A DNA stretch of 64,000 nt. It comes from Candidatus Methylomirabilis sp. GTDB lineage: Bacteria; Muiribacteriota; Ozemobacteria; Ozemobacterales; Ozemobacteraceae. The stretch covers positions 28,851 through 92,850 of the forward strand of contig DYKG01000002.1 in the NCBI GenBank assembly GCA_020722725.1. Reading direction: 5' to 3'. Positions 9,805 to 52,329 of the stretch are shown in pieces. The notes below the pieces were generated by a model that was not told where the DNA came from, ran no database searches, and saw only the letters and a program-made list of their open reading frames with translations. How positions within the stretch are numbered: position 1 is the stretch's first letter; each line of letters opens with the position of its first letter. A program made the position numbers and the translations under genes.

Positions 9805-9823
9805 TTCTGTCAGGAGGACCATT

Positions 9824-27563: not shown

Positions 27564-28463
27564 TTAGATGTCAGAAGTGCCTTCCTGATCAGCATCTTCT
27601 ACGGTATCAGAACCTTCGCCATCATCTGTTTCAGTTTCAGATGTCGAACCACCCATATCTTCAGAAGTATCTGATTCTTCTGAATCGAGGCTCTGTTCGT
27701 AAGCTTCAGCTTCTGACCAGCCCTGTTTCCAACCATCTTTACCAGCCTGGAAAATCTGGCCAAGCATATCGCCGAAGCCCTTGTCAGCATTGGCGGCAGT
27801 CTGACCTATCTGTTCAATTACCTTACCAATGTTGTCGAGCATTGTGCCTACTGAATACAAAACTTTACCCACGTTCATTAGAGCCTGACCAATAGCTGCG
27901 GTCCAGGGAATGGCCGACAAGGCTTTACCGATTAACTGTAGAGACTGACCCACAGTTTTCAGCAATTGACCAATTTTCTGCAGAAGCTGACCAGTTTTGA
28001 TCAATGCGCCCTGAATGCCTGCTTTTACTTTTGCAAGTTTGTCAAGCGCATCGCCATCACCACTGATAGCATCGCCAATCGATTTTACTTCGCCGGCAGC
28101 ATCTTTAGCTGTATCTTTAACGTCTTTAACTTCAGTTTTGGCACTGTCGAGCTTAGAGTTTGCTTCTCTGATTTTTCTCTTCGTACTCTTACTCATGTAC
28201 CATTTAGTTTTTGCCTTTTTGGTAGTGCTAAGCTTTTCATAGGCCTCATCAGTTTTTTCACTGCCCTCTTCGGCTTTTTCAGCAGAGGTAGCCATTGCTT
28301 TATCATCATCTACTTCTGGTGCTGCAGCAGCATCTTCAGAGCCAGCATCACTAGACCCATCCACCGAAATATCCGCAGCATAGACAGCCACCTGTAAAAT
28401 CAGCGGATTAAAAATCAAGGCGAAGCACAGCACCATCGACAACCAGAAATTACATTTTTTCAT
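27564..28463 (-). CDS. Secreted repetitive amphipathic protein with poly-acidic C-terminal tail
   Basis: A signal peptide is followed by Lys/Asp-rich helices and then tandem degenerate repeats (IGQLLKTVGQSLQLIGKAL, NVGKVLYSVGTMLDNIGKVIEQIGQTA). The C-terminus is Asp/Glu/Ser/Thr-rich. Confidence 0.55.
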   Translation of the reverse strand: MKKCNFWLSMVLCFALIFNPLILQVAVYAADISVDGSSDAGSEDAAAAPEVDDDKAMATSAEKAEEGSEKTDEAYEKLSTTKKAKTKWYMSKSTKRKIREANSKLDSAKTEVKDVKDTAKDAAGEVKSIGDAISGDGDALDKLAKVKAGIQGALIKTGQLLQKIGQLLKTVGQSLQLIGKALSAIPWTAAIGQALMNVGKVLYSVGTMLDNIGKVIEQIGQTAANADKGFGDMLGQIFQAGKDGWKQGWSEAEAYEQSLDSEESDTSEDMGGSTSETETDDGEGSDTVEDADQEGTSDI

Positions 28464-28535
28464 ATTAAACTCCTCCTGAACATTTTTATCTTCTGCAAAA
28501 CTTACGTAACAAATTTATTTTTCGTTGCTGTAGGC

Positions 28536-29219
28536 TTACAATTTTTTGTGGCCAGTTTCAAAACGCCAGTATGGATTATTCGTACTGCTGTTTAGAAAAG
28601 GGCTTGAGATTGAAGTAGTAAGCTCCAGGGCACTACCAATTTTTTCAGAACCGTATAGATTCTCTCCTTCATGAATTTTTAATCTTACCCACAGAAGAGG
28701 AACAGCCTCTTCGAGCTGATGAACGTAAACCTTGAATTCGACATCTTCGATGCCCGTGAACTTCTGGGTTTTACCGCCTTCACCACTACGAATTAAGGTT
28801 TTTGCCGAGCTGTCAAATTCATACCGAACCTGCTCAACCGTAGGTTTTTCACTGGTTGGCAAAAAAGCAAATTTGTAAAACAGAAGACCGTTTGGCAAGA
28901 CCTGAATCAAATCGCCAGCATTGCCTCCAACGCCTGAAACTGTTGCAAAAATCTGCTTTCGGGTTCTCTGAAAGTCAGAGTAACTTACATCGTCAGGATC
29001 CTCAAGTCTTGGGCAGGCACATGAGAAATCGCGTCTCAGATAATTTATCGCCAGACGACCCTCTTTAAGATTCTGCAAATTAACGGTTCCATAAAGAAAA
29101 TGATGCCGGGTACTTGATAAAAACTGAAAAATCAGAAGAAAAGCCACCAAAGCAACTGCTACGCTAATAGTCATTTCCACCAGCGTAAAAGCGTTTCTAT
29201 TTTTGTTTAAAATTTTCAT
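28536..29219 (-). CDS. Prepilin-type pseudopilin
   Basis: The N-terminus MKILNKNRNA|FTLVEMTISVAVALVAFLLIF has E at +5. Confidence 0.78.
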   Translation of the reverse strand: MKILNKNRNAFTLVEMTISVAVALVAFLLIFQFLSSTRHHFLYGTVNLQNLKEGRLAINYLRRDFSCACPRLEDPDDVSYSDFQRTRKQIFATVSGVGGNAGDLIQVLPNGLLFYKFAFLPTSEKPTVEQVRYEFDSSAKTLIRSGEGGKTQKFTGIEDVEFKVYVHQLEEAVPLLWVRLKIHEGENLYGSEKIGSALELTTSISSPFLNSSTNNPYWRFETGHKKL

Positions 29220-29220
29220 T

Positions 29221-29787
29221 TTATTCTAACAGACTCTCATCATTTAAAATCAGCACCGATAGCTGTACCTGACGACTTCTGTCGTCTGACACATTGGGAT
29301 TAGCAGGTCGATACCCCTCGCTCCATTTAACCGTCACCGTAACTTTCTTTAAAAGATCAGCATGAACATATGAATCGGTAACATCTTCGATTTTGATTTC
29401 TCGAAAGAAAAAAGCATTGTTATACTGTTCTGAATAAGCAATTGAGTCTGCGGTCAATCCGTCGCCAGACCAGACAGTATTTTTGGGATTCCCAACCGCA
29501 ATGCTTGCGGGTTTCATGTTGCTGCCATCATCGATAGAAATCGGCTCAGAAAAGGCTGAAAAAATTTCCGGGGTAACCTTGCTGTATGGAACTACTGATG
29601 CCCATTCAATTGCCTCATTGGCCAACTCCATCGCCCTCAGATAATTAATCGCCCTGGAAGTATCAGTTCTGGTCGAAGTTACCATATAAACTATTGGCAC
29701 AGCGCAGGCCGAAACCACAGCAATGGCGATCAGAACTTCAATGAAGCTGATCCCCTTGTTTGCCATCTGCCGGCCTGGGCTTATCAT
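29221..29787 (-). CDS. Prepilin-type pseudopilin (GspG/PilE-like N-terminus)
   Basis: The N-terminus MISPGRQMANKG|ISFIEVLIAIAVVSACAV has G at -1 and E at +5. Confidence 0.78.
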   Translation of the reverse strand: MISPGRQMANKGISFIEVLIAIAVVSACAVPIVYMVTSTRTDTSRAINYLRAMELANEAIEWASVVPYSKVTPEIFSAFSEPISIDDGSNMKPASIAVGNPKNTVWSGDGLTADSIAYSEQYNNAFFFREIKIEDVTDSYVHADLLKKVTVTVKWSEGYRPANPNVSDDRSRQVQLSVLILNDESLLE

Positions 29788-30086
29788 TTGATTATTTTCC
29801 CTTTATCTTTAATCAATTCATTTTCTTTGGTGAACTCAGTTCTGGTTTCAACCGAAAATACATGAGAAGGAGGCTTTGAATATCTGATTTTCCGAATTGG
29901 TCGTGCAACACCTGGAACTTTCGAATCAAGATAAGGCTCAGAGCTTTTTTGCGTGGAAATTTTCGCCGGATTATCAATATTAACGATGGTTTTCGGACTT
30001 TTTTCGGAAAAATGGTGCAGCAAAGAAAGTACGGTAGACATGACTACTACGACCGAAAGAACAATTAACCATCTTGCCTGATCCAT
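29784..30086 (-). CDS. Small single-pass membrane protein within the pseudopilin cassette
   Basis: The 100-aa protein has an N-terminal TM (WLIVLSVVVVMSTVLSLL). Its start overlaps the upstream stop and its stop overlaps the downstream start. Confidence 0.5.
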   Translation of the reverse strand: MDQARWLIVLSVVVVMSTVLSLLHHFSEKSPKTIVNIDNPAKISTQKSSEPYLDSKVPGVARPIRKIRYSKPPSHVFSVETRTEFTKENELIKDKGKIIK

Positions 30087-32500
30087 CAGAAAGTTTTGCC
30101 TCCAGCATTGACGCTATACATGGTTTTTACTGGCCCGATGCTTACGTGGTAAGGATCAAGTTTTTCACCATCTACCTCGGCAGCCGGGTCATAGATCAAT
30201 GGGTCGTGTTGAATAATCAGCCAGCCGCCATCGGCCAGACCATTTCCTGATGAATCGTGAGTATAGAGATAATCGACCAGAAGATTACCCAAGATTTTCA
30301 CCTTTGACTGCCCGGTTAAAATCAAGGTTCCCATCCTGGTTGGGTCGGTGGTTCCAAATGGGTAAGAGAATGCTGCCAGTGAAGCGTGAATTTCTGCGGT
30401 ATCGTATTCAGACCTGATTATGAACTTGCCGTCACGCAGATATATTCTGAGAGTATCATTGCGACCGTCAAGCCTTTTGAGGTCACTGACGAAACAATTT
30501 CCACGACCAAGATAAATCATGCCCTTGCCGTAAAATTGATTCACTTTACTCAAATCAAGATCGCCTTCTTCGATATAAATACAACCATCGACAAACATTG
30601 TGTCTTTGCCGTCATATTCTCTAATTCTATGTTCTACGAATATTTCGGTATTGGGGTAATTCCAGCTGACGGTTTTGAAGTCAATCAACCTTCCGAAATT
30701 GACTGCACTTATGTTTGAACCGCCTGGTTGTAATGGTTCGGTAGTGTTGGGATGGCCAAGAATTGTGGTGCTGGTGGTAATTTCATTGCCATCACCATCA
30801 AAAATAGAAATGCTGTCACCCATAAGCGCATTTATCGAAACATTATCGACTGCGCGACTCATCAGAAATTCTTCTTTATGTAGTCCGGAAAAAGGAACCG
30901 GAGCGCCGAGCTTTGTGTTCAAAAAATTATTGGTATCTTTATCATAGCGATAAAATCGCAACGGCACTGTTTCTGGCTCTATGTTAGCATTACCCCTGAA
31001 AAATTCAATTGTTTGACTGAAAGTATCAAGAAAGCCAATTTTAAAAAATCTTAAAAAGACCGGGCCTTCAACAAACAGCTTATTCTTACAGTCGCTGCCA
31101 TACAGCATCGGCATTTTTCCGACTCTGACCCGCTCAGGGTTATAATCATCACCATCTTTTTTTTCAAGGTATTCGGCAAAATAAGCACCCTTGTCATTAA
31201 GTTCGGCGGTTGGAGAAGCCAGACCTCCGAATGCGAGAGCGGTAGCCCAGGCTCTGGGGGCCGGCAGGTCGGGCAGGCTCAAATTTTCAAGATTCCAGAT
31301 TGAATTTGCGTCGGTGAAACCATAGGTGTAGGGCCACTTCGAAATGCATGTATTAAGTATTTTTTTGAATCCGGCGCAATCTTTATAAATTCCAACATTA
31401 CCAGACATCTTGAAATTATCGTGAAAATCCTGGCAGATTTCATAGGCGGCAGCATTGCTGTTAGACGCATCCATAGCCTTCTTGCACAACTCTTTAAGTT
31501 TCTGCTTTGTTTCTTTTGAAGGTTTTGAATTGCCAAGACACCCGTCAGCGGCCTGATTCACGAACTTTTCATACAGTGCAATTACTGCCCTGACCTGATA
31601 AAACTGGCTAACTGAGATTCCAGTAAGGCTTGCAAAAGGATAGGAATTTGAAAAGAAAAGACACTCAGGCATATCGCCACCGGCAAATGCCTTCAGACCA
31701 GAATATCCGGTTATCCTGGCAAAATTAGGGAGTTTTGAAGATTCTTCAAAAAACAGGTCAAACAATAAATGTTTTTGAACCTCAGCACATTTGGGATAAT
31801 TATGGTTCCCTAGAAAGGCGTGAGACATAAAAGGGCCATCTGCAGGGATTCCCTCTATCAATATACGACGTTTCGGATGGTTATAGCTGGGGCCAAAATT
31901 CTTGACAAAAAGAGCATAACGGTCGAAGCGGTGACGCAGGTCAACCAGTCTTACATCGCGACGCTCGCGAACCTCGATCATATTTTCTTCCGCGCCATCC
32001 AGGTAAGCCTGAGAAATCACATCCAGATAGGCATTGAATGCAAGAACCGACTTCGCCGGAGCCTCACGATAAGCAGTCAAGGTTGCCCGGCTTTTAATCA
32101 CCAGATTATAACCAGCATTGTTGGCAATTTCCAAAGTCTGCTGTGGCGCGAAGTTCGACAGCAGAACGATTTCGGTATTTAAGCCAGGCGCTGTGCCGCC
32201 TGAATCAGGGAAAACGGAACGAAGCCTGGCAAAAATCCGGGAGTCGAGAGCATAATTGGCATTGCTGCGAATAATTGCAACAACCTCAGCATTTGCGGAC
32301 TGGGCCAATAAAGTGAGGCGGTTCTGGTCGACATTTTTGGCCAACTGGGTAACCGTTCCGCTTTTCAGGCTGTTCAGGGCAAAGGCAAGAATTGCCAACG
32401 CAAGTAGCACTGTGATGACAATGTATAGAATAAAACCACTTCTATGCTGTGTACTCAAGAATCTGCCCATAACTTTGATTTTAAAACAATTCACCGGCAA
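30086..32500 (-). CDS. Giant (about 800 aa) GspK-like minor pseudopilin/membrane-anchored surface protein
   Basis: The N-terminus ...MGRFLSTQHRSGFILYIVITVLLALAILAFALNSL resembles the GspK hydrophobic N-terminus and lacks E at +5. An alternative start is at 32470. No good Shine-Dalgarno sequence precedes either start. Confidence 0.55.
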   Translation of the reverse strand: MPVNCFKIKVMGRFLSTQHRSGFILYIVITVLLALAILAFALNSLKSGTVTQLAKNVDQNRLTLLAQSANAEVVAIIRSNANYALDSRIFARLRSVFPDSGGTAPGLNTEIVLLSNFAPQQTLEIANNAGYNLVIKSRATLTAYREAPAKSVLAFNAYLDVISQAYLDGAEENMIEVRERRDVRLVDLRHRFDRYALFVKNFGPSYNHPKRRILIEGIPADGPFMSHAFLGNHNYPKCAEVQKHLLFDLFFEESSKLPNFARITGYSGLKAFAGGDMPECLFFSNSYPFASLTGISVSQFYQVRAVIALYEKFVNQAADGCLGNSKPSKETKQKLKELCKKAMDASNSNAAAYEICQDFHDNFKMSGNVGIYKDCAGFKKILNTCISKWPYTYGFTDANSIWNLENLSLPDLPAPRAWATALAFGGLASPTAELNDKGAYFAEYLEKKDGDDYNPERVRVGKMPMLYGSDCKNKLFVEGPVFLRFFKIGFLDTFSQTIEFFRGNANIEPETVPLRFYRYDKDTNNFLNTKLGAPVPFSGLHKEEFLMSRAVDNVSINALMGDSISIFDGDGNEITTSTTILGHPNTTEPLQPGGSNISAVNFGRLIDFKTVSWNYPNTEIFVEHRIREYDGKDTMFVDGCIYIEEGDLDLSKVNQFYGKGMIYLGRGNCFVSDLKRLDGRNDTLRIYLRDGKFIIRSEYDTAEIHASLAAFSYPFGTTDPTRMGTLILTGQSKVKILGNLLVDYLYTHDSSGNGLADGGWLIIQHDPLIYDPAAEVDGEKLDPYHVSIGPVKTMYSVNAGGKTF

Positions 32501-32566
32501 AGTAAAAGCATTTTACCAACGCCTTAAGATCTCCGGCAATCTTATGCAGTCAAAAACACAAATCAT

Positions 32567-32594
32567 TTGCAGACAATCCGGGATATGCTAGAAT
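32567..32594 (+). promoter_or_regulatory. Candidate sigma70 promoter TTGCAG-16-TAGAAT upstream of the 32623 gene
   Basis: Near-consensus hexamers sit in the divergent intergenic region, about 28 nt upstream of the ATG. Confidence 0.4.
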
Positions 32595-32622
32595 ATGCCG
32601 GATAACAAATTTGGGGGACGAC

Positions 32623-34029
32623 ATGAACAAAACTTTGCGAATTGGAAGCCTTGCAATTATTCTATTGATTTTTTCCGGTGCACTGGTTTTTGCTGAAAAG
32701 GCAAGCGTTACCAACACTCAAGATGCTCAGACAAATTCTGCCGGACGAGTTCTGATCGCCTTCAAGGCTGAGCGCATCGGCAAATTTCTGGCTGAGCCGG
32801 GCAATGTTCCAATAGAATTCCTTCGAAGAGCAGGCAGGGAAATTAACAAAAACTGGCCTGCAGACGAAAAATACATAGAAGCCGCATCGGTTTTTGAACA
32901 AGAAAATTTTGGCGAGAAAAACTTTCTTAAGGCAAAAAAATTTATTGAGCTGAGCTCCGGGCAACAAAAAGACGCCAAAGCCATTATCGACCGCTATTCT
33001 TCTGAAGCAGACGAACTGTTACAGGAAATCAAACCCGACGAAAGTTGTATTCTGATGAAAATGGCGGCAGAAACAGACCCGATAATCGATCTTTTGAAGA
33101 GTCTTATCGAAAGGAAACAAAATATCGGAAGCTTGAAAGAAGACCAGATTTATAAAATCCAGCATCAGATTTTGCCGATGCTTGAATGCTCTGATTATTT
33201 GATTGGAGCTGCGATCCTTTCCAATCAGGGGTTTGAAGCAAGACTCAGAATAAAAAGCCTGAGTGGGCGCCTCGCTGACCCAAGAATCAGCCATTCGATA
33301 AGTATTGGCAAGTTTATTAATAATGACGCGCTGATGGTTTTTGCCCAAACCCATCCAATTGAAGACCCCTCCGAGATTATGAAAGGCATGCTGGAAATTC
33401 CCCAGACGTTGACGGTTATTTCGATGGTAGCCTCAGCCGGCCTTGATTTTGAAAAAGATCTGCTCGCCAACAGCGCCCGCGAAAGCATTTTTTACGTTAA
33501 TCTTGAACCGGCAGAAGATTCCGGGGTACCCGACCTTCGTTTTGTAGCTCCCGTTCCAGACATCAAGAAGCTTGAAAACAATCTTGAAAAGCTCAAAACT
33601 CTTTGCGTTCAGAGCGGAATTTTTGTAAAAAATCTTGAAGGAAAGACCCCTGGAGTAAGGCTCAGCCATTTTATGTTTCCCCAATATGGCATTTTTGCAG
33701 CTATTTTCGATGAATTTATTGTTCTGGCATCAGCTGAAGAGAATCTATATGATGAAATTGATTTTCTACGATCCGTAAAGGCAGGCAAAACCGCCTCAGA
33801 TTTTTCCACCGAAAATCTGCAGAGATTCTGGCGCATCAACTTCAGCAATTTCAATTTACAGCTGCAAAAACTGCTGCAGTCGCCACTCATGGCAGACAAA
33901 GGAGTGCCACCCATACCCAATCTGGCATTTCTTGACGATCTTGATGATATGAAAATTCTTACAAGGCTTGAGCCTGATCGATTAGACCTTTCTGTGTTGT
34001 TACCGATTAGAGAAAACAAAGAAAAGTAG
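32623..34029 (+). CDS. Secreted protein of unknown function
   Basis: An ATG at 32623 is preceded by GGGGGA. A signal peptide is present (MNKTLRIGSLAIILLIFSGALVFA). The ORF-track TTG start at 32611 is less likely. Confidence 0.55.
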   Translation: MNKTLRIGSLAIILLIFSGALVFAEKASVTNTQDAQTNSAGRVLIAFKAERIGKFLAEPGNVPIEFLRRAGREINKNWPADEKYIEAASVFEQENFGEKNFLKAKKFIELSSGQQKDAKAIIDRYSSEADELLQEIKPDESCILMKMAAETDPIIDLLKSLIERKQNIGSLKEDQIYKIQHQILPMLECSDYLIGAAILSNQGFEARLRIKSLSGRLADPRISHSISIGKFINNDALMVFAQTHPIEDPSEIMKGMLEIPQTLTVISMVASAGLDFEKDLLANSARESIFYVNLEPAEDSGVPDLRFVAPVPDIKKLENNLEKLKTLCVQSGIFVKNLEGKTPGVRLSHFMFPQYGIFAAIFDEFIVLASAEENLYDEIDFLRSVKAGKTASDFSTENLQRFWRINFSNFNLQLQKLLQSPLMADKGVPPIPNLAFLDDLDDMKILTRLEPDRLDLSVLLPIRENKEK

Positions 34030-34092
34030 ATTAAAAAAAAGATTTTATGGTATACATAACATTACAGTTCTAATATGGGAGACATACCATCG

Positions 34093-35052
34093 ATGAGGAA
34101 AACAAAGCTGCCAGTTATTTTAATGGTTCTGGCCATTGTCGCAATCTTTACCGGATGCGGCAGCGAACCAAAGAAACCAGATCAGCAGGCGCAACAACCT
34201 GCCACAGCAGAAGCCTTACCCAACAAGATTGCTGAAGGCGTCTCTCCATATTCCAATCAAGTGCTGAAACTTGGCCGCATCCCCTTCACCAATCCCACCG
34301 CAATGGTGCAGAAACATAACAAATTTCTTGAGTATCTAACTCGAAAACTCGGGGTCAAGCAGGTAAGACTACAGACCGCACCTGATTATAACGGCATTCT
34401 GAACCTACTGGTTAAAGGCGAAATAGATATTGCCTGGCTTGCCAGCAACATTTCAGCAGAAGCAAGAAACAACCCTGATATACAGTTTCTGGTGAAGCCT
34501 ATCAGATTTGGCACAGACTCTTACCGCGGCATCATTATAGCTCGCCAGGACAGTGGAATTCGCACTTTAACCGATCTCAAAGGCAAAAAATTCGCCTGGG
34601 TGGAAAAAGAGTCCGCATCTGGTTACACATTTCCCAAATCTCTGCTGCTTGAAGCCGGCGTTGATCCAGAAAAAGACTTTGCTGAAGCAGATTTTCTTGG
34701 AAAACACGACGTTGTCGTTCTTAACGTCCTGCTTGGAAAATATGATGCCGGCGCCTGTTATGATGACGCAAGAAAAACTTTGCGCGACAAAGCCAAGGCC
34801 GATGAACTGACAATTCTTGCCACAACTCAGGATATTTCAAATGAACCAATTGTATGCAGAAAAAACCTGCCCCCGGATCTTATCGAGAAAATCAAGCAGG
34901 CGCTTCTGGAGCTGAATAACAAAACCCCCGAAGGTCGCGAAATTACCGATGACCTGACCGATGTTCAGGGTTTTGTTCCAGCAAACTTCAAAGATTACGA
35001 TTACATCGAAAAAGTCCAGAAACTTCTGGAAGAATATAGCAAGCGAAAGTAG
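34093..35052 (+). CDS. PhnD/SsuA-type periplasmic substrate-binding lipoprotein (phosphonate-ABC-like SBP), no adjacent permease or ATPase
   Basis: A GGGAGA ribosome-binding site precedes the start. The lipobox is IFTGC. The fold motif GRIPFTNPTAMVQKHNKFLEYL...GEIDIAWL is typical of the PhnD family. Confidence 0.65.
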   Translation: MRKTKLPVILMVLAIVAIFTGCGSEPKKPDQQAQQPATAEALPNKIAEGVSPYSNQVLKLGRIPFTNPTAMVQKHNKFLEYLTRKLGVKQVRLQTAPDYNGILNLLVKGEIDIAWLASNISAEARNNPDIQFLVKPIRFGTDSYRGIIIARQDSGIRTLTDLKGKKFAWVEKESASGYTFPKSLLLEAGVDPEKDFAEADFLGKHDVVVLNVLLGKYDAGACYDDARKTLRDKAKADELTILATTQDISNEPIVCRKNLPPDLIEKIKQALLELNNKTPEGREITDDLTDVQGFVPANFKDYDYIEKVQKLLEEYSKRK

Positions 35053-35066
35053 CAGCAATACAGTAA

Positions 35067-36872
35067 TTGGAGAAGTCGGTACCACGAACAAGGTTTTCAC
35101 TGAAAATTAAGTTTACCATTGGCATTGCACTGCTGGTAGGCCTGATTATTCTTCTGACCTCGCTCAACACTTCAATGCGAGAAGAAACCCTGCTTTCTAC
35201 AAGCATGGATCAGTCAGGCATTCTACTTTCTTCAACGCTTGCAATTGCCTGCCAGGATCCTATTATCAGCCAATCTTACGATGCCCTGATTCCCTATACC
35301 GAACGATTGATCTCTGGCGGTGAAGACGTTCACGAAATTTCAATTCTCGACATTGATGGCAAATATCTCGCTCATCGAATACGCGGCGATGCCGAAAGTC
35401 GACTGGGTCAGAATATCAGTGAAGCTTTGCGACTGAAAATAGAAGAAATACAAAGCCCCACCAGAATTCCCGCTGAAGATCAACATTACGTAGATTACGT
35501 GGCACCCATCAAGGTAGGAACATCAAAATTTGGGACAGTCATTCTGCGATTCAGTTTTGACCGTCTGATTGAGTCCAAGTCAACCAGTCGCAAACGCATT
35601 ATTCTCATCGGTATGGTTGCGTTACTTGCCGGTATTATTCTGTCAATTGTATTGGCTCAGTTCATTACCAAAGGTCTTGACTACCTGATTCAGGGCACTC
35701 AGGCCATCGAAAAGGGTGATCTGGCTTACCGAATAAAAACTTCGTCAAATGACGAAATTGGAACCCTTGCCTTCAGATTCAATGAAATGCTCGACGCCCT
35801 CGAATCGAACAATAAAGCTCTTGACCGCAAGATTTTTGAAATTGAAACTCTATTCAAAGCCAGTCAGGCCATGAATTTTCAAAGTGATACCGACAAACTG
35901 ATCAAACAAATTTTGGAGATGGCAGGCAGAGCCATTAGAGCCGAGCGCTGCTCGATAATGCTGCAAACCAGTGCGGGAGCAGAAGAACTTGAAACCAAAA
36001 TAGTTTTTGGCTTAGGAAATGGCCAGAGCATAGAAAACGTAAAATCTGCGATCAGAATCAAATCCGGTGAAGGGATTGCCGGAACCGTTCTTAAAACAGG
36101 AAGCAGTCTGATCGTAAATGATGGCCATCGCGATCCCCTTTTCAAAAGCTTTGACAGCACATCTGATCATGAAAAAACAATCAGGAATCTGATTTCGGTT
36201 CCACTTAAGATTAAAGATCGGGTAACCGGGGTAATTAACGGAACCAACAAGCTTAACAACGAATCTTTCACAGAAGAAGATCAGAGACTTCTTGAAGCAT
36301 TGGCACAACAGGCCGCAATGGCAGTTGAGCATGCCCGCTTGTATGAACTGGCAATTACCGATGGTTTAACCAAGCTGTTCATCCATCGTTATTTCCAGGC
36401 ACGCCTTGAAGAAGAGATGGCTCGCGCAAAGCGATACCATACCGCATGCTCACTGGTTCTTTTCGACATCGACCACTTCAAGAAATTCAACGATACTTAC
36501 GGACATCAGCAGGGTGACATCGTTTTGATCGAGGTTGCCAAACTGATTAAACTTGCGGTTCGCGATACTGTAGATATTCCTGCCCGATACGGCGGCGAAG
36601 AATTTGCGATTATTCTTCCCGAAACTGATGCAAAGGGTGCTCTGCTGGTCGCCGAAAGACTTCGCAAAACCGTCGAGTCCTTTGACTTCCCTGGCCAGGA
36701 ACAGGCTTTGAAAGTCACTATTTCACTCGGTGTTGCCACTTTCCCAGACCACGCCAGTGTTAAGAGTGTTCTGATCAAAAAGGCCGATATGGCACTTTAC
36801 GAGTGCAAAAGTCGAGGCAGAAACTGCTCTTTCATCTTTGATGACAGCATCTCAGGTATCGGCGAACACTGA
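35067..36872 (+). CDS. Membrane-anchored HAMP-GAF-GGDEF diguanylate cyclase
   Basis: An N-terminal TM and periplasmic region precede a second TM. A HAMP domain (IGTLAFRFNEMLDALE), a GAF domain and a GGDEF domain with an intact RYGGEEF motif follow. Confidence 0.85.
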   Translation: MEKSVPRTRFSLKIKFTIGIALLVGLIILLTSLNTSMREETLLSTSMDQSGILLSSTLAIACQDPIISQSYDALIPYTERLISGGEDVHEISILDIDGKYLAHRIRGDAESRLGQNISEALRLKIEEIQSPTRIPAEDQHYVDYVAPIKVGTSKFGTVILRFSFDRLIESKSTSRKRIILIGMVALLAGIILSIVLAQFITKGLDYLIQGTQAIEKGDLAYRIKTSSNDEIGTLAFRFNEMLDALESNNKALDRKIFEIETLFKASQAMNFQSDTDKLIKQILEMAGRAIRAERCSIMLQTSAGAEELETKIVFGLGNGQSIENVKSAIRIKSGEGIAGTVLKTGSSLIVNDGHRDPLFKSFDSTSDHEKTIRNLISVPLKIKDRVTGVINGTNKLNNESFTEEDQRLLEALAQQAAMAVEHARLYELAITDGLTKLFIHRYFQARLEEEMARAKRYHTACSLVLFDIDHFKKFNDTYGHQQGDIVLIEVAKLIKLAVRDTVDIPARYGGEEFAIILPETDAKGALLVAERLRKTVESFDFPGQEQALKVTISLGVATFPDHASVKSVLIKKADMALYECKSRGRNCSFIFDDSISGIGEH

Positions 36873-37984: not shown

Positions 37985-38013
37985 TTGACTCACCGAAGCT
38001 ACAATGCTAGTAT
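37985..38013 (+). promoter_or_regulatory. Candidate sigma70 promoter TTGACT-17-TAGTAT upstream of the cNMP/MCP gene
   Basis: Near-consensus hexamers lie about 34 nt upstream of ATG 38047, and an AGGAG ribosome-binding site is at 38035. Confidence 0.45.
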
Positions 38014-38046
38014 GTAAGATACTTTTCAGCCGTTGCAGGAGAAATA

Positions 38047-38733
38047 ATGTCGTCGGAAATTGATAAAATTCAGTTTCTCAGGCAGGTTGCCCTATTCAGA
38101 AGCCTAACTGACAAGACCTTGCTTGACCTTTCCGCAATTACCATTGAGCAGACCATTCCTGCGAAAACCACGGTGTTTAAAGAAGGCGACAAAGGCGATG
38201 CCCTTTTTATAATTAAAGCAGGCAAGGTAAATGTTCTTAAACGCAACAGTGCGGGCATCGACTCTGTTCTGGTATCACTTGGAAAAGGCGCGGTTATTGG
38301 TGACATGGCAATCATCGATGAGCAGCCAAGATCGGCTTCGATTGCCACAATTCAGGAAACGACCTTTCTCATTATAACCAAAGATGATTTTCGTAATCTC
38401 CTGGGTGAAATACCGGAAATTTCTTTTCAGATTCTAAAACTGACCACCGAACGTCTGCGTGCGACAAACAATCATTTAAAAGAGCTCGAAGCCTCGACCA
38501 ACCAGATGGAAGACGTCATCCGGGTTATTACCAAGATTGCCCGTAAAAGCAACCTTCTTTCACTCAACGCTTCAATTGAAGCCGCGCGGGTTGGAGAAGC
38601 AGGCCGCGCCTTTTCAGTTGTTGCATCTGAAATGAAAAAACTGGCTGAAGACTCGGCTCAGGAAGCCAAAAAAATCGACACGCTGCTACAGGAACTTCAG
38701 ACTAAAACAAAAGCAATCGCAGGAATGAAATAG
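38047..38733 (+). CDS. Cyclic-nucleotide-binding domain protein fused to a minimal MCP signalling-domain hairpin tip
   Basis: The N-terminal region (about 120 aa) is a CAP/cNMP-binding fold ([18 protein letters not shown]...[15 protein letters not shown]). The C-terminal 90 aa carry [32 protein letters not shown], the near-invariant MCP tip. Confidence 0.75.
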
Positions 38734-38797
38734 CAGGTTGTTTTTTCCGGCAAAAAAGGTTAAGATACAGAGACTAGACCCTGACAGGGAGCATTCA

Positions 38798-39256
38798 ATG
38801 TCTCAATATAAATCACAAGTTCAGAATCAGTTCCTTTCAGTTGCCAGAAAAAAGCATCTCAAAGTTGAAGTAATCCTTGAGACCGGCACAGTTATCCGCG
38901 GCAAGGTTCAGGCTTATGACCAGTTTTCAATTTCTATTTCATTTAAAGACAAAGTTGAAGTAGTTTACAAATCTTCAATTATTTATATTTCAGCATTGCC
39001 ACAACGGCCGATGCCGGCAAGGCGCCCCTCTGGGCCTAGAACCTCTTCGGGCGGTTATCGACCATCTTCAGATTCTCATAGAACCGATGCTCCCAGGCCA
39101 GACTCTTTAATACCTGATACATCGAGACCTGATTCACCAAGGCTCAAAAGAGACTATGCTCCGCCACCACCCAAGAGATCGTTTCCGGATTTTGATGAAG
39201 ATGCTGATCTCAATGATCCACCACCACCGAAAAAGCCGGTTCGCCGCAAGGTTTAA
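38798..39256 (+). CDS. hfq: Hfq-like Sm-fold RNA chaperone with about 80-aa Pro/Ser/Arg-rich C-terminal tail
   Basis: QNQFLSVARKKHLKVEVILETGTVIRGKVQAYDQFSISISFKDKVEVVYKSSIIYISALPQRP aligns with the E. coli Hfq core [60 protein letters not shown]. An ATG at 38798 is preceded by AGGGAG. Confidence 0.65.
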   Translation: MSQYKSQVQNQFLSVARKKHLKVEVILETGTVIRGKVQAYDQFSISISFKDKVEVVYKSSIIYISALPQRPMPARRPSGPRTSSGGYRPSSDSHRTDAPRPDSLIPDTSRPDSPRLKRDYAPPPPKRSFPDFDEDADLNDPPPPKKPVRRKV

Positions 39257-39362: not shown

Positions 39363-40223
39363 ATGTTTTTAAACTGTCCAAGATGTGATTCAAACTGCAT
39401 CGATTCAGCAGGAAACTGTGGAAGTTGCGGTTACACGCTTCGCATAACCTGCAACAAATGCGGCAACAAAAGCATACCTACCGCCCGTTTCTGCGGAAAA
39501 TGCGGTTCGGCTCTGAACCTGAATACATGGCTGAAGCAAAAATTTCGCGAGAATTCAACCCTGGCGAGCCGCCTCAAGTTTAGAAAGTTTGCAGCTGGAA
39601 TTGCATTTGGCACTTTTCTCGGAATCTTTGCCTTTGGCTCAATGGGAATGCACTCAGAATCTGCATCGTTCAACCGCCCAACTTCATCACTCACTCCGGT
39701 CAGCAGTTTACGTATTGCCAAAGCATCTATTTTTGAGCAACTGAACGAATTCAGAAATTCCCGAGATCCCAGAGGATTTGTCAGCCTCGGAGATTTGAGA
39801 AACTTTTCAGAAGTCATAACCCGGAATCTTTCATCGGTCAACGAAGCAGAAACGACGAGGCTATGGCAACCGTGCACTTCTGACGAACAGATTGCCAAAA
39901 TACGGGCATTTTGCCATAAAAATCGCCCCAGCCGCAGTGGAGTAGCAATGTTGCTTTTCAATATTGCCACTGAATATCTTGGCATCAATCATCGCGATTT
40001 CACCGAAAACTGCCATTTTTCAGACATACCACGGTTTCATTTTTTAAGCATACCAACCCAGGCTTTATATAGCATGGGTATTAATCTGGAAAAGAACAGC
40101 AAAGAATTTGGGTGCAATGATTCCGTAACCGTGGAAGAACTGTATTGCGCCGGCATAGCCTTATGCGAAGCCAATGAAATCAGACTGAAACAAAAGGTAT
40201 TTTGCAACCTTCAGCCCAATTAA
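39363..40223 (+). CDS. Double zinc-ribbon membrane protein with periplasmic/C-terminal domain of unknown function
   Basis: The N-terminus carries CPRCDSNC...CGSCG...CNKCGNK...CGKCG. One TM follows (AAGIAFGTFLGIFAFGSMG). Confidence 0.55.
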   Translation: MFLNCPRCDSNCIDSAGNCGSCGYTLRITCNKCGNKSIPTARFCGKCGSALNLNTWLKQKFRENSTLASRLKFRKFAAGIAFGTFLGIFAFGSMGMHSESASFNRPTSSLTPVSSLRIAKASIFEQLNEFRNSRDPRGFVSLGDLRNFSEVITRNLSSVNEAETTRLWQPCTSDEQIAKIRAFCHKNRPSRSGVAMLLFNIATEYLGINHRDFTENCHFSDIPRFHFLSIPTQALYSMGINLEKNSKEFGCNDSVTVEELYCAGIALCEANEIRLKQKVFCNLQPN

Positions 40224-45347: not shown

Positions 45348-46181
45348 TCAACCCTGAGGGGTCGCAAATTTCCAACGGGAAAGAACAATGTCGTTACCGC
45401 TCTTTTCCAGAACCAGCAGATTACCAGTGCTGTCAAAGCCAAGATCACGTTGACAGACTTTTTCAGGGCCATCAATTTTCCAGATCATGTGGCCGTTTTG
45501 CCCGATCAATGCGATCTTTCTTCGGTTGTTTTCGTAAGATGAAAGAAGAGCTTCGCCTTCAACACCGAGAGGCCCCAGTTCCAGGCCTGAGGGATCGAAT
45601 TCCGGAGAAAACCTGTAGATTTCTTTCATTCGGTTGCCAAAGCAATCATACAGATTAATCACCCAAGGCCCAGGCTTCTGGCTTAAACTGACTGACCAGA
45701 CAAAACCTTCGGTAAACGGCAGAGCAAAATGGACATTTGAAATCTCGACAGCTTCGGTTGCATTTGCGGCGAGAAAGACCATTTTTTCGCCACCAGTAAT
45801 TACAAGGCCCTGATCGCAATGTTCTATTCTGCATCCATTCCAGCCATTTTTCGGCCAGTTTTGATCGACAAGGCCTCTGAGTTTGCCTTCTTCATTTAAA
45901 ATCAGTGGCTGACCAAGAACCAGATCAAAATCAAGCACTCGCTCACCTTTAATTCGGTTATTAAAAGACTCTCCGGTTGAAAGATCGATACTGACCATGC
46001 GGCCAAGGTTGTTCATAATCACAACTTTGTCGAGGCTAACCCGCATGCCAAGCAGACCATAGCTCAATTCTGGAGGCAATTTCAGCAGGACTTCACGGTC
46101 AATGTTAATCTGAGCCCAGCCTGCTGCACAAATCAAACAAAATATTGAAAACGCGATTGAAATTCTTCTAAAAGCCTTCAT
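45348..46181 (-). CDS. Secreted protein of unknown function (predicted beta-rich)
   Basis: A signal peptide is present (MKAFRRISIAFSIFCLICAAGWA). Its start overlaps the upstream stop (ATGA). Confidence 0.5.
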   Translation of the reverse strand: MKAFRRISIAFSIFCLICAAGWAQINIDREVLLKLPPELSYGLLGMRVSLDKVVIMNNLGRMVSIDLSTGESFNNRIKGERVLDFDLVLGQPLILNEEGKLRGLVDQNWPKNGWNGCRIEHCDQGLVITGGEKMVFLAANATEAVEISNVHFALPFTEGFVWSVSLSQKPGPWVINLYDCFGNRMKEIYRFSPEFDPSGLELGPLGVEGEALLSSYENNRRKIALIGQNGHMIWKIDGPEKVCQRDLGFDSTGNLLVLEKSGNDIVLSRWKFATPQG

Positions 46182-47140
46182 TTTCTCTCACCCCAACTCA
46201 TGCTTTTTACTGCAAACTGACCGGCAGGTGCCTTTTCGAAATCAGCCTCAGCAAGCCATACAATTCCCTCTGTTCCGGCGAGATAGCGGTTCATAACCGC
46301 AGGAGGCTCAAACTCCATACTTCTGGCAACGCGACCAAACGGGGTAATCTCCATCAGTTTCAAGGTTCCCTTAAAACCGCCGGCCGGCACAAATGAAACA
46401 ACAATATTCCCATTCCCGGCAACTGCCCAGACTCTTGGGTTGGTTAATTCCGCCATGCCGAGATGCAAGCTCTTTTCAAGCTGCCCTTTGCTGGAAAAAA
46501 CCTTAATAAAATACCCTGCGTTTTCTTCGTATTGAAGTGTATGCATACGATTCGATGGGTCAAAAGCAAAGCCACAGCGCTGCCAGGAAATTTCTCTTAC
46601 CAGCTCGCCGTAGGGGGTAAAAACGGCAATCACTGAGCGACCGATATCACCAACGTAAACCCGGCCGGTTCGATCAACTTCAATCTGGTTGATCTGCAGA
46701 AATTTTCCCGGCTCGTTGCCATTGCCACCGACTTTCACCAGCTCTTTTCCATTGGCCAGAGAAATCTTTTTAACCTCGCACGTCGCTGCTTCAGCGACCC
46801 ATACAGATTCTGGGTCGCCGGTTGAGCCTGAATTCAGAGCAAAATCCTCCAGCACCAAATTTTCAGGCATTCCTGAAAGCATAAAGCTTTTTTTCAGCTT
46901 GTTTTGCCCGTCAAACTGATGGATTTTGCCGCCAATTGAGTCGAGCACCCAAAGATCGTTTTTGCAAATACGAAATGACATGGGCCCAAAAGGCTGGTCT
47001 TCTTTAAAAGTTTTATCAGTATTTGAATTGAAAACGGCAACCTGACCATTTTCACGACCATAGCTGATGCTCCATGAATCTGCCGCCTGAACTCCACAAC
47101 CGGTAATAAGCATCAGCATTAAAGCAGGTTTAAGTTTCAT
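46178..47140 (-). CDS. Lipoprotein, probable beta-propeller (NHL/YVTN-like)
   Basis: The lipobox is LITGC. Repeated VYVGD/VWV-type strands are visible. Confidence 0.5.
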   Translation of the reverse strand: MKLKPALMLMLITGCGVQAADSWSISYGRENGQVAVFNSNTDKTFKEDQPFGPMSFRICKNDLWVLDSIGGKIHQFDGQNKLKKSFMLSGMPENLVLEDFALNSGSTGDPESVWVAEAATCEVKKISLANGKELVKVGGNGNEPGKFLQINQIEVDRTGRVYVGDIGRSVIAVFTPYGELVREISWQRCGFAFDPSNRMHTLQYEENAGYFIKVFSSKGQLEKSLHLGMAELTNPRVWAVAGNGNIVVSFVPAGGFKGTLKLMEITPFGRVARSMEFEPPAVMNRYLAGTEGIVWLAEADFEKAPAGQFAVKSMSWGERK

Positions 47141-48509: not shown

Positions 48510-49724
48510 ATGATCGATTTAAAAGCATTTTCCTTTTTTAATACGCTCCCTTCACGCGAATTAGATAAAATCAAGCAGATCAGCCGGTTTAAAAAATATG
48601 CTTCCGGCACCGTAATTCTTAAAGAGAAAGAAGACGTTTCCGACCTGATAATGGTAGTTGAGGGTCAGGTATCAGTTATCAAGACTTACGGACAAAAGAA
48701 AAGCACCCTCTTCACTCTTGACCCTGGCGAAATTTATGGCGAAGTAGAAATTCTCAATGGCACCAAGTGCCTTACAACCCTGATAGGCTACCAGGAATTT
48801 CAGCTTATTTACATACCCAAAGACTTTTTTCTTCGCCTGATTGGTCTATATCCAGGGTTTGCCAAAGAAACCAGAGATCTTTATTCCCGGCGCGGTCAGA
48901 TTCTTCTTGAAGAAGGGATGAGCAAAAGCCAGCTTGGTAAGGTGGTTACCTTCTTCAACGTTAAAGGTGGCGCAGGCAAATCGGTAATTTCATCAAACGT
49001 GGCTGTAATGCTGGCAAAATACTGGCAAAAGAAAACCGTTCTGCTTGATATGAACCTTGCATTCGGAGACCAGGCAATTCTTCTGAGTCTTAGCCAGGAA
49101 AAAAACATTCATCTGCTCACCAAAGCCAAGCAACCGTTGAATATAAAGCGAATCGAAGAGCAGCTTACCGACCACTCTTCAGGCCTTAAAGTGCTGCTTC
49201 CACCTGCCGTGCCTGAACTGGCAGAATTGATTAAACCTGAATTCGTCGAAAGCATTATTGAAATTCTAAAAAACCACTACGATTTTATCATCATCGACAC
49301 CCACAACCAGTTGAGCGACCTCGAGCTGAAAGTTCTTGAGAACTCTGATCTGATAATGCTGATGATGACGATGGAGCTTACCTTCATTAAAAACACCAAG
49401 ATTCTTCTTGATCTTCTCGGGCGACTTAAAATTCCTAAAGAGAAAATAAAGGTAGTTCTTAATCGTGCATTTAAATCCATGGGACTCGAACCCTCAAAAG
49501 TTGAGAAATCACTGCGCTATGCAATCAGCCATTTTATTCCAAGTGAGGGAAACATCGTAGTGCCATCAGTCAACCATGGAATCCCTTTCGTGCTGTCAAA
49601 AGGAAGCGATGGGTCTGCGATTCTTCTTTCAGTTAGAAAGCTATGTGCCAGACTCACTGGAGAGGAAATCGAAAAGGGAACCTGGAATATGTTTTCTCTG
49701 TTAAAGGAAGTATTTGGGCTTTAA
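48510..49724 (+). CDS. cNMP-binding domain fused to a CpaE/TadZ-family (MinD/ParA-like) P-loop ATPase
   Basis: The N-terminal region (about 120 aa) is a cNMP-binding fold (VILKEKEDVSDLIMVVEGQVSVIK...GEIYGEVEIL). The ATPase has a deviant Walker A (FNVKGGAGKSVISSN) and LLDMNLAFGD, matching the CpaE DLDLQFGD block. A candidate TTGATG-17-TATAAA promoter lies at 48451-48479. Confidence 0.75.
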   Translation: MIDLKAFSFFNTLPSRELDKIKQISRFKKYASGTVILKEKEDVSDLIMVVEGQVSVIKTYGQKKSTLFTLDPGEIYGEVEILNGTKCLTTLIGYQEFQLIYIPKDFFLRLIGLYPGFAKETRDLYSRRGQILLEEGMSKSQLGKVVTFFNVKGGAGKSVISSNVAVMLAKYWQKKTVLLDMNLAFGDQAILLSLSQEKNIHLLTKAKQPLNIKRIEEQLTDHSSGLKVLLPPAVPELAELIKPEFVESIIEILKNHYDFIIIDTHNQLSDLELKVLENSDLIMLMMTMELTFIKNTKILLDLLGRLKIPKEKIKVVLNRAFKSMGLEPSKVEKSLRYAISHFIPSEGNIVVPSVNHGIPFVLSKGSDGSAILLSVRKLCARLTGEEIEKGTWNMFSLLKEVFGL

Positions 49725-49739
49725 AAATACCCAATTGTT

Positions 49740-50501
49740 TTACCAATTAAACAATTTTTTGAAAAAGCCCGGCCTCTTTTTTTCAACCCTTACCACAATG
49801 GCAGTAATATTATCGCTGCCACCATTTTCCAGAGCCTGCTGAATCAATGAATTAACCTGGGTTTCCGGTTCATTTGAAGATTGAAGAATTTTTTCAATCT
49901 GCGAATCTTCGACTTCACCAGTGAGACCATCTGAACAAAGAAGAAAAACATCATCATTAGATACTGGTCCGGATGAGATATCAACCTCAATATTGTCAGC
50001 ATGCCCCACATATCGGGTAATCGAATTTTTGTATGGGTGGTCCTTTTTTTCTTCTTCGGTTATCAAACCACGCAAAAACAGCTCTTCAACATAAGAATGG
50101 TCTCTGGTCAACTGTTTCAGCTTTCCTGAACGAAAAAGATATATTCTGCTGTCGCCGACATATCCGATGTAAAAATCATTTTCTTTGAATGCAAGCGCAA
50201 CGCAGGTACAGCCCATGCCTTTCTTCTCTGATCTTTCAGCAAGAGCTTGCCTGACAGCGCGATTCGCCCGGGCAAAGGATTCTTTCATCAAAGGTTCAAT
50301 GGCTGATGCGGTTGTAAAAGACTCTTCGAAGCATTTAACAATGCTCTCGCGCGTTGCAGCTGAAGCTATTTCGCCGGCCGACAACCCCCCCATGCCGTCA
50401 GAAACAATGAAATAGCCTTTTTCAGAGGAAACAAAAAAAGCGTCTTCGTTATGGTCTCTTACTTTACCCACGTTTGTAGCGCCAAATGCAGAGAAACGCA
50501 C
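49740..50501 (-). CDS. PP2C-family Ser/Thr protein phosphatase
   Basis: Motifs present are GKVRDHNEDAF, DGMGG, GDSR and GGSDNIT. Confidence 0.88.
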   Translation of the reverse strand: MRFSAFGATNVGKVRDHNEDAFFVSSEKGYFIVSDGMGGLSAGEIASAATRESIVKCFEESFTTASAIEPLMKESFARANRAVRQALAERSEKKGMGCTCVALAFKENDFYIGYVGDSRIYLFRSGKLKQLTRDHSYVEELFLRGLITEEEKKDHPYKNSITRYVGHADNIEVDISSGPVSNDDVFLLCSDGLTGEVEDSQIEKILQSSNEPETQVNSLIQQALENGGSDNITAIVVRVEKKRPGFFKKLFNW

Positions 50502-50517
50502 GAACCATCCTCCTCGG

Positions 50518-52326: not shown

Positions 52327-52329
52327 AAA

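What the first reader, a model, noticed from the sequence alone, without database searches (positions are those of the whole stretch)
38047..38733. Soluble cNMP-binding domain fused to a minimal MCP hairpin-tip, in a region without che genes
The C-terminal 90 aa carry the near-invariant MCP tip [32 protein letters not shown]. Only about 40 residues flank it on each side, far shorter than a full 300-aa or longer methyl-accepting coiled coil. No methylation-helix region is present.

The N-terminus is a CAP-type cyclic-nucleotide-binding domain.

This could be a cNMP-controlled decoy or adaptor for CheA/CheW arrays, or a tip-domain protein repurposed for a non-chemotaxis kinase.

Strong candidate promoter and ribosome-binding elements lie upstream, so it appears to be an independently expressed unit together with the downstream Hfq-like gene.
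Basis: partly seen in the sequence, partly recalled or inferred. Interest (0 to 1): 0.55.

Follow-up and report, generated by a model that had tools for sequence, protein, structure and literature searches.

The report
Cyclic-nucleotide sensor fused to chemoreceptor tip
This is a real, strongly conserved small protein that joins a cAMP/cGMP-type sensor to only the kinase-docking tip of a bacterial chemoreceptor, so it may feed a second-messenger signal straight into chemotaxis-type signalling, but its partners are untested.

Summary
ORF 38047-38733 (+) encodes a 228-aa soluble protein. It has a CRP-like cyclic-nucleotide-binding (CNB) domain (Pfam 73 bits) whose C-helix appears to run into a 91-residue MCP hairpin (Pfam MCPsignal 94 bits, profile positions 19-105 of 172). 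The hairpin equals Tsr ~345-435, about 13 heptads, against 24H for the shortest defined MCP class. It has no methylation motifs.

It is not a pseudogene. More than 100 orthologue clusters of 225-240 aa occur across Candidatus Rifleibacteriota, and dN/dS is about 0.04-0.06. The same architecture recurs in at least two other lineages at about 33% identity.

All experimentally mapped CheW and CheA-P5 contact positions are invariant or conservatively substituted in 55 members. Engineered tip fragments of similar size bind CheA/CheW.

The most likely role is a non-adapting, cNMP-gated mini-receptor or decoy for CheA/CheW. This is unproven, because I could not establish whether these genomes carry cheA/cheW. 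There are no che genes in the window or in the roughly 10 kb past its 3' end.

In Rifleibacteriota the gene is always followed by hfq and a zinc-ribbon membrane protein. I rate it a new variant of a known kind, of moderate interest.

The parts
37985..38013 (+). Promoter-like site (TTGACT, 17 nt, TAGTAT, with TG before the -10)
   Evidence: It matches 9 of 12 positions and is not more than chance in this region. An own promoter is inferred because the upstream gene is divergent in L001 and L002.
38037..38041 (+). Ribosome-binding site AGGAG, 5 nt before the ATG
   Evidence: Read directly from the sequence.
38047..38733 (+). CDS of the 228-aa CNB-mini-MCP protein (stop codon included)
   Evidence: dN/dS is 0.04-0.06.
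38071..38412 (+). Cyclic-nucleotide-binding domain (residues ~9-122; Pfam match 35-119)
   Evidence: Pfam 73.1 bits. The AF2 model has pLDDT 90. Foldseek aligns ~140 residues at ~2 A rmsd to M. tuberculosis CRP and GlxR.
38299..38340 (+). Phosphate-binding cassette [14 protein letters not shown] (residues 85-98)
   Evidence: G85, D86, P94, R95, S96 and A97 are invariant in the 13 Rifleibacteriota members aligned. The Arg is shifted or replaced by His in the Sericytochromatia-like clade.
38413..38457 (+). CNB C-helix (residues 123-137), modelled as continuous with the N-arm of the hairpin
   Evidence: AF2 DSSP reports a helix from 123 onward without a break. CRP alignments extend to residue ~148.
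38458..38730 (+). MCP signalling hairpin, residues 138-228 (about Tsr 345-435), 13 heptads
   Evidence: Pfam MCPsignal 93.6 bits. Query 144-217 aligns with Tsr 351-424 in PDB chains 6s1k and 8c5v. Heptad count.
38539..38646 (+). Protein-interaction tip (residues 165-200, [36 protein letters not shown])
   Evidence: The mapped CheW and CheA-P5 contact positions are invariant or conservatively substituted in 55 members.
38786..38791 (+). Ribosome-binding site AGGGAG of hfq
   Evidence: Read directly from the sequence.
38798..39256 (+). hfq-like gene (Sm domain followed by a Pro/Arg-rich tail), 64 nt after the stop codon
   Evidence: Pfam Hfq 51.9 bits. It lies downstream in all six Rifleibacteriota loci examined. 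No terminator-like site lies between the genes.
39363..40223 (+). Double-zinc-ribbon protein with one predicted hydrophobic segment; third conserved neighbour
   Evidence: Pfam DZR. A homologue is present next to hfq in all six Rifleibacteriota loci and is inverted in L012.

Best explanation
The gene encodes a soluble, probably dimeric, cyclic-nucleotide-gated mini-chemoreceptor.

Proposed mechanism: a CRP-like CNB domain binds cAMP or cGMP. Its C-helix, which forms the dimer coiled coil in CRP, appears to run without interruption into the N-arm of a 13-heptad MCP hairpin. This hairpin keeps only the protein-interaction subdomain of a chemoreceptor. Through this canonical tip the protein docks on CheW and the P5 domain of CheA, alone or in mixed trimers of dimers with full-length receptors. 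Nucleotide-induced movement of the C-helix then changes bundle packing at the tip. That would either change kinase output or change how much CheA/CheW is sequestered. With no methylation helices the input cannot adapt, so it would set a tonic bias that tracks the intracellular cNMP level.

What is shown: the domain architecture, the conservation, purifying selection, and retention of the mapped contact residues.

What is inferred: dimerisation, ligand identity, CheA/CheW binding, and the direction of the effect.
For: Both domains score far above the Pfam cut-offs in all 55 members tested. The phosphate-binding cassette is intact in the Rifleibacteriota clade.

The hairpin aligns to Tsr 351-424 and to T. 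maritima receptors at E ~1e-12 to 1e-15. Thirteen receptor positions mapped by NMR at the CheW and CheA-P5 interfaces, plus Tsr V384, R388 and V398, are invariant or conservatively substituted. This holds across three clades that share only ~33% overall identity.

Within Rifleibacteriota the hairpin is more constrained than the CNB domain: dN/dS is 0.013-0.037 against 0.057-0.075, and N-arm conservation is 0.93 against 0.80.

PDB 3UR1 and 4JPB contain 85-90-residue T. maritima tip fragments in ternary complex with CheA P4-P5 and CheW. Engineered 71-residue hairpin 'foldons' assemble core units and activate or inhibit CheA. So a hairpin of this size is sufficient.

One paper lists 'Ozemobacteria' among the clades that carry FlgV, a protein it finds co-conserved with flagellar genes. 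Another reports a conserved mcp-containing cluster in Riflebacteria.
Against: No che gene lies in the window, in the ~10 kb past its 3' end, or next to the gene in any of ten loci from three clades. I could not establish whether cheA/cheW exist elsewhere in these genomes.

The only other MCP-like gene seen nearby is a tip-less remnant.

The AF2 monomer models show one uninterrupted helix from 123 to 225 by DSSP, so the hairpin geometry rests on homology and not on the model.

Three CNB dimers may clash sterically in a homotrimer of dimers; this is an untested inference. Some Sericytochromatia-like members have lost the canonical phosphate-binding Arg.
Confidence: 0.45

Rival explanations
1. 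Repurposed tip. The MCP hairpin is used as a cNMP-controlled four-helix-bundle interaction module for a non-Che partner. In Rifleibacteriota the obvious candidates are the co-transcribed Hfq or the zinc-ribbon membrane protein, which would link second-messenger level to RNA regulation or envelope signalling.
For: The trio of CNB-miniMCP, hfq and zinc-ribbon gene is conserved in all six Rifleibacteriota loci, while the upstream genes vary. Intergenic gaps are 21-94 nt and no terminator is predicted. No che genes were seen anywhere nearby. From my own knowledge, there is a precedent for an MCP-like soluble protein working outside chemotaxis: P. aeruginosa BdlA.
Against: Members in the other clades lack Hfq and zinc-ribbon neighbours (LptE, PCMT or unknown genes instead) yet keep the same tip residues. 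The conserved positions are exactly the canonical CheW and CheA-P5 contact set. The zinc-ribbon protein evolves much faster (27-51% identity) than the CNB-miniMCP (67-89%). hfq may simply be a housekeeping neighbour.
Confidence: 0.25
2. Pure decoy or array antagonist. The protein binds CheW/CheA but cannot control the kinase. It acts only by titrating coupling proteins or breaking up arrays when cNMP is high or low.
For: The evidence for binding is the same as in the best explanation. Engineered tip-only constructs can strongly deactivate T. maritima CheA. The flexible-bundle and methylation subdomains that normally transmit signals are absent.
Against: The C-helix is modelled as continuous with the N-arm and this junction is well conserved (conservation 0.84 for residues 123-143). 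That suggests conformational coupling and not mere tethering. The two sub-models cannot be told apart by sequence.
Confidence: 0.2
3. CRP/FNR-family transcription factor, as several database records name it.
For: NCBI and JGI names are 'Crp/Fnr family transcriptional regulator' and 'CRP-like cAMP-binding protein'. The CNB domain plus C-helix superposes on CRP.
Against: There is no HTH domain. The C-terminal 90 residues are an MCP signalling hairpin in all 55 members.
Confidence: 0.02
4. Truncated pseudogene of a full-length MCP, or a Pycsar-like anti-phage effector with a CNB sensor.
For: The MCPsignal match is partial. The CNB part gives weak PADLOC hits to Pycsar CNB-TIR effectors, 39-43 bits.
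Against: Pseudogene reading: length is conserved at 215-240 aa in more than 130 clusters. dN/dS is ~0.05 with synonymous sites saturated. The arms are symmetric, and the next ORF (hfq) is in another frame.

Defence reading: the gene is inherited across the phylum at a housekeeping locus. It has no TIR or transmembrane effector domain. There is no adjacent cyclase in the window.
Confidence: 0.03

Closest known systems
Canonical methyl-accepting chemotaxis proteins (E. coli Tsr, class 36H; T. maritima TM1143)
   Same: The hairpin tip and protein-interaction region are shared: 57-59 bits to Tsr 351-425, with conserved trimer-contact, CheW-contact and CheA-P5-contact residues.
   Different: There is no transmembrane or periplasmic part, no HAMP, no flexible-bundle or glycine-hinge region, and no methylation helices or sites. 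There is no C-terminal pentapeptide matching the CheR/CheB-tethering NWETF motif (motif identity from my own knowledge). The hairpin has 13 heptads, against 24H-64H for the twelve defined classes.
Soluble cytoplasmic chemoreceptors with an intracellular sensor (for example Aer2, HemAT, TlpD, TM14; from my own knowledge)
   Same: The logic is the same: a cytoplasmic sensor domain on top of an MCP signalling hairpin, in a soluble protein.
   Different: Those receptors keep a full-length signalling domain, usually with adaptation sites. The sensor here is a CNB domain, which I did not find described for an MCP in the searchable literature. A longer CNB-MCP (P0285, 327 aa) does exist in databases.
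Engineered minimal receptor fragments: Tm14s in PDB 3UR1 and 4JPB, and the Tar and Tm14 'foldons'
   Same: They are nearly the same size (85-90-residue chains; 71-residue hairpin units with the ~36-residue interaction region). They align to residues ~150-217 of this protein. They bind CheA P4-P5 and CheW and modulate CheA.
   Different: Those are artificial truncations with an artificial trimerisation motif. This protein is natural, conserved, and carries a ligand-binding input domain.
CRP/FNR-type cNMP receptors (M. tuberculosis CRP, GlxR)
   Same: The CNB beta-barrel plus long C-helix superposes at ~2 A rmsd with 28-34% identity over ~140 residues. The phosphate-binding cassette motif is shared.
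   Different: The C-helix leads into an MCP hairpin instead of a helix-turn-helix DNA-binding domain.
Second-messenger inputs to chemotaxis: PilZ-containing MCPs and MapZ/CheR1, both responding to c-di-GMP (from my own knowledge)
   Same: The concept is the same: an intracellular nucleotide messenger tunes chemoreceptor signalling.
   Different: The messenger class differs (cNMP against c-di-GMP), as do the sensor fold and the point of action. Those systems act on full-length receptors or on the methyltransferase.

Membership tests
MCP signalling domain (Pfam PF00015) | Profile match that includes the conserved hairpin tip | tested here: met
   93.6 bits against a cut-off of 34.6. All 55 members match.
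MCP signalling domain (Pfam PF00015) | Receptor residues that contact CheW, CheA-P5 and the trimer partners are conserved | tested here: met
   Thirteen NMR-mapped positions, plus Tsr V384, R388, F396 and V398, are invariant or conservatively substituted across 55 members. Tsr E391 and R394 equivalents vary in a minority of members.
MCP signalling domain (Pfam PF00015) | Antiparallel hairpin with arms of equal length | tested here: inconclusive
   The arms are 46 and 44 residues by alignment to solved hairpins. However, the AF2 monomer models show one unbroken helix by DSSP.
Chemoreceptor heptad classes 24H-64H (MiST) | Signalling domain of 24 to 64 heptads | tested here: not met
   91 residues equal 13.0 heptads.
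Methyl-accepting chemotaxis protein in the functional sense | Methylation helices with consensus Glu/Gln sites | tested here: not met
   The 10-residue consensus is found in 0 of 55 members, while a Tsr control is detected. The region retained is Tsr ~345-435 only.
Methyl-accepting chemotaxis protein in the functional sense | cheA and cheW present in the same genome, or genetic linkage to them | not testable with these tools
   None found in the 64-kb window, in the ~10 kb past its 3' end, or in nine other loci. Whole genomes could not be searched.
Cyclic-nucleotide-binding domain (Pfam PF00027) | Beta-barrel profile match and fold | tested here: met
   73.1 bits against a cut-off of 27.5. Foldseek gives ~2 A rmsd to CRP and PKG CNB domains.
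Cyclic-nucleotide-binding domain (Pfam PF00027) | Phosphate-binding cassette with the conserved Gly, acidic residue and Arg-Ser/Thr-Ala | tested here: met
   G85-D86 ... P94-R95-S96-A97 is invariant in the Rifleibacteriota clade, with Asp in place of the usual Glu. The Arg is lost or shifted in part of another clade.
Cyclic-nucleotide-binding domain (Pfam PF00027) | Binds cAMP or cGMP | not testable with these tools
   Needs a binding assay. Sequence does not discriminate between the two nucleotides.
CRP/FNR transcription factors | C-terminal helix-turn-helix DNA-binding domain | tested here: not met
   There is no HTH_Crp or Crp hit. The C-terminus is MCPsignal.
Pycsar anti-phage effectors | CNB domain fused to a TIR or transmembrane effector, next to a PycC cyclase | tested here: not met
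   Only the CNB part matches, at 39-43 bits. There is no TIR or transmembrane domain and no cyclase in the window.
Hfq (the downstream gene) | Sm-fold profile match | tested here: met
   Pfam Hfq 51.9 bits against a cut-off of 27. It falls below the NCBIfam equivalog cut-offs.

The most novel reading that the evidence does not exclude
The MCP tip has been freed from chemotaxis in this family. Under this reading the CNB-mini-hairpin is a cNMP switch that acts on the co-transcribed Hfq or on the zinc-ribbon membrane protein. That would couple second-messenger level to post-transcriptional regulation, which would be a new output class for the MCP signalling module. A less radical but still new alternative is that it is the first natural 'tip-only' receptor, wiring cAMP or cGMP directly into CheA control without adaptation.
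Probability: 0.2. Interest if true: 0.8.

Novelty: new variant of a known kind. Interest (0 to 1): 0.55.

Why it matters
Chemoreceptor signalling domains are classified into length classes from 24 to 64 heptads, and all of these carry adaptation regions. A conserved natural protein with only the 13-heptad protein-interaction tip under a ligand-binding domain would be the natural counterpart of the minimal fragments that structural biologists had to engineer.

It could therefore be a compact, soluble, ligand-switchable system for studying how tip conformation controls CheA. It would also be a direct route by which cAMP or cGMP biases motility. If it does not bind Che proteins, it shows that the most conserved part of MCPs can be reused for another output.

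In addition, database names for this family ('Crp/Fnr transcriptional regulator') are wrong.

Tried and rejected
- Exhaustive profile search. The top of the list was dominated by multi-CNB proteins; only single-stretch hits of ~220 aa were informative.
- Genome-contig scan with the family alignment. Only three family loci (L010-L012) were recovered, so phyletic counts in species-representative genomes could not be made.
- Che genes in Rifleibacteriota. Literature searches gave no explicit statement, and the Ozemobacter genome paper is not held. Extending the window found only a tip-less MCP remnant. The last homologue search, on that remnant, returned nothing useful.
- Structure. AF2 monomer models, with a shallow and then a deeper alignment, did not show a break at the hairpin turn by DSSP. 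The PDB fold search matched only the CNB and C-helix part. AFDB50 was unavailable.
- BLASTP of the Ozemobacter downstream gene against the window Hfq aligned only the Pro-rich tails. The translation shows clear orthology by eye.
- The review on cytoplasmic chemoreceptors could not be read.
- Readings rejected: pseudogene, CRP-type transcription factor, and Pycsar effector. Reasons are given under the rival explanations.

Full report
**Observation.** The ORF at 38047-38733 (+) is real: 228 aa, ATG start, with AGGAG five nucleotides upstream. Pfam finds a cyclic-nucleotide-binding (CNB) domain at residues 35-119 (73.1 bits, cut-off 27.5). It also finds an MCP signalling domain at residues 138-224 (93.6 bits, cut-off 34.6), which covers only profile positions 19-105 of 172. 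No helix-turn-helix domain is found, so the database names 'Crp/Fnr family transcriptional regulator' given to close relatives are misleading. NCBIfam chemoreceptor models match only ~75-97 residues around the tip, at 55-68 bits against cut-offs of 900 or more.

**Which part of a chemoreceptor is retained.** Sequence search of the PDB aligns residues 144-217 with Tsr 351-424 in full-length-numbered chains 6s1k and 8c5v.
- The hairpin 138-228 therefore corresponds to Tsr ~345-435.
- The arms are 46 and 44 residues around the turn at E184, which is 13.0 heptads.
- From my own knowledge, this stops just inside the glycine hinge (Tsr G340, G341 and G439). It is therefore the protein-interaction subdomain only.
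- The twelve defined MCP classes run from 24H to 64H, and Tsr is 36H.
- The 10-residue methylation consensus occurs in 0 of 55 family members, while a Tsr control segment is detected.
- No member ends in a CheR/CheB-tethering type of pentapeptide.
- The next ORF is in another frame and encodes Hfq, so there is no in-frame continuation.

**Not a pseudogene; a conserved family.**
- More than 110 clusters at 90% identity, of 225-240 aa and with both domains, were found. Where a source names an organism it is mostly Candidatus Rifleibacteriota (Rifleibacterium, Ozemobacter), with identity from 100% down to 57%. A few records are labelled Clostridiales or Erysipelotrichia.
- Against orthologues in L010 and L011, dN/dS is 0.056 and 0.041. 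Synonymous sites are saturated for more distant pairs.
- The hairpin is more constrained than the CNB domain: dN/dS 0.013-0.037 against 0.057-0.075.
- An exhaustive profile search and a follow-up profile search found the same architecture at 215-238 aa in other lineages with only ~33% identity. These have 36-44 residues after the tip. One record is named Candidatus Sericytochromatia.
- All 55 aligned members hit both Pfam models.

**Sensor domain.** The phosphate-binding cassette GDMAxIDxQPRSA[ST] is invariant in the Rifleibacteriota clade. The AF2 model built from 55 sequences has pLDDT 90.4. Its CNB barrel plus C-helix superposes on M. tuberculosis CRP and GlxR at ~2 A over ~140 residues. 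The C-helix is modelled as continuous with the N-arm of the hairpin. In part of the Sericytochromatia-like clade the canonical Arg is shifted or replaced by His, so ligand binding may differ there.

**Output domain.** A 2026 review lists receptor residues mapped by NMR and crosslinking at the CheW and CheA-P5 interfaces: T. maritima TM0014 E132, I135-E143, A145, R146 and I156, and Tsr A383, V384, R388, E391 and V398.
- Mapped onto the family, these positions are invariant or conservatively substituted in all 55 members. Examples are L171, N174, A175, I177, E178, R181 and V191, as well as G183, G186 and F189.
- PDB 3UR1 and 4JPB hold 85-90-residue T. maritima tip fragments in ternary complexes with CheA P4-P5 and CheW.
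- Engineered 71-residue hairpin units form core-unit-like complexes and activate E. coli CheA or inhibit T. maritima CheA.
- A natural 91-residue hairpin is therefore long enough, and it has the right surface, to dock on CheA/CheW.

**Genomic context.** Pfam scans of about 55 ORFs found no che gene in the 64-kb window, and none in the ~10 kb beyond its 3' end.
- In six Rifleibacteriota loci the gene is followed by hfq, at gaps of 21-94 nt, and by a double-zinc-ribbon protein (inverted in L012). The upstream genes differ: dus, folC-like or ychF.
- No terminator-like site separates the gene from hfq.
- The promoter-like site at 37985-38013 is not above chance.
- In the other clades the neighbours are LptE, PCMT or unknown genes. 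Again there is no che operon, although L006 has two full-length MCPs within 8 kb.
- Ozemobacter has a class III cyclase gene beside the trio; the window does not.

**Interpretation.** The best-supported model is a cNMP-gated, non-adapting mini-receptor or decoy that docks on CheW and CheA-P5 through a canonical tip. The CNB C-helix would transmit nucleotide binding into the four-helix bundle.
- Shown: the anatomy, the conservation and the interface retention.
- Inferred: dimerisation, the ligand, the partners and the sign of the effect.
- Main weakness: I could not determine whether these genomes encode CheA/CheW.
- Indirect hints only: a FlgV paper lists 'Ozemobacteria' among clades carrying a protein co-conserved with flagellar genes. 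A survey of novel gene families mentions a Riflebacteria-specific family in a conserved cluster with mcp.
- Main rival: a repurposed tip acting on a non-Che partner, for which the phylum-wide linkage to hfq and the zinc-ribbon protein is the only clue.
- Rejected: pseudogene, CRP-type regulator and Pycsar-effector readings.

**Novelty.** Within the searchable literature I found no description of a CNB-domain MCP or of a natural tip-only receptor. The sequences exist in databases only under automatic names. I rate it a new variant of a known kind, of moderate interest.

Noticed in passing
window 48510-49724 (+), with 49740-53508 (-): A second CNB fusion: cNMP_binding plus a ParA/MinD-like AAA_31 ATPase. 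It sits next to an FHA-AAA_31 protein, a Ser/Thr kinase with a PEGA domain, and a PP2C phosphatase. This suggests elaborate cNMP and phospho-signalling in this genome.
   Followed up: no
L090 15543-16050 (-), about 5 kb beyond the window's 3' end: A 107-aa ORF that is only the C-terminal end of a canonical MCP (…ASAEETASAAQEL…RFRLK). It overlaps a 78-aa ORF with a HAMP-like motif. This looks like a split or internally deleted receptor lacking its tip. The same protein (P0383) lies on a 243,886-bp contig, the same length as the longest contig carrying the window's CNB-miniMCP protein.
   Followed up: partly
window 38798-39256 (+); L002 8710-9183: The Hfq-like protein carries an ~80-residue Pro/Arg/Ser-rich tail with a DPPPP(K/R)K motif that is shared with the Ozemobacter orthologue. 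It scores below the NCBIfam Hfq equivalog cut-offs.
   Followed up: partly
window 34075-36872 (+): A phosphonate-type periplasmic binding protein lies directly upstream of a membrane HAMP-GAF-GGDEF diguanylate cyclase. This could be a binding-protein-dependent c-di-GMP sensor pair.
   Followed up: no
P0221 (309 aa, from the exhaustive search): A protein with three tandem copies of an MCP tip-hairpin unit (…IADQTNILA(L/M)NAAIQASAAG(D/E)AGRGFAVVADEVQRLA…) and no other recognisable domain.
   Followed up: no
P0285 (327 aa); P0340, P0346 and P0319 (134-136 aa): A CNB domain fused to a longer MCP hairpin, and stand-alone MCPsignal-only mini-proteins, some on long contigs. Shortened MCP modules may therefore be more widespread than this family.
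   Followed up: no
window 8053-12409 (+): A prepilin-type N-terminal methylation motif protein is followed by three ORFs with no Pfam match. From the gene order I suspect a pseudopilin or minor-pilin cluster; this was not tested.
   Followed up: no
L002/L003 10481-12046 (-): Ozemobacter sibiricus has a class III adenylate/guanylate cyclase gene between the zinc-ribbon gene and PBP1A, right beside the CNB-miniMCP trio. It is absent at this position in the window.
   Followed up: no
window 3380-5410, 27564-29787, 30086-34029, 45348-47140: Several long ORFs of 188-804 aa have no Pfam match at E <= 1e-5. This fits the reported high content of unknown genes in Riflebacteria.
   Followed up: no
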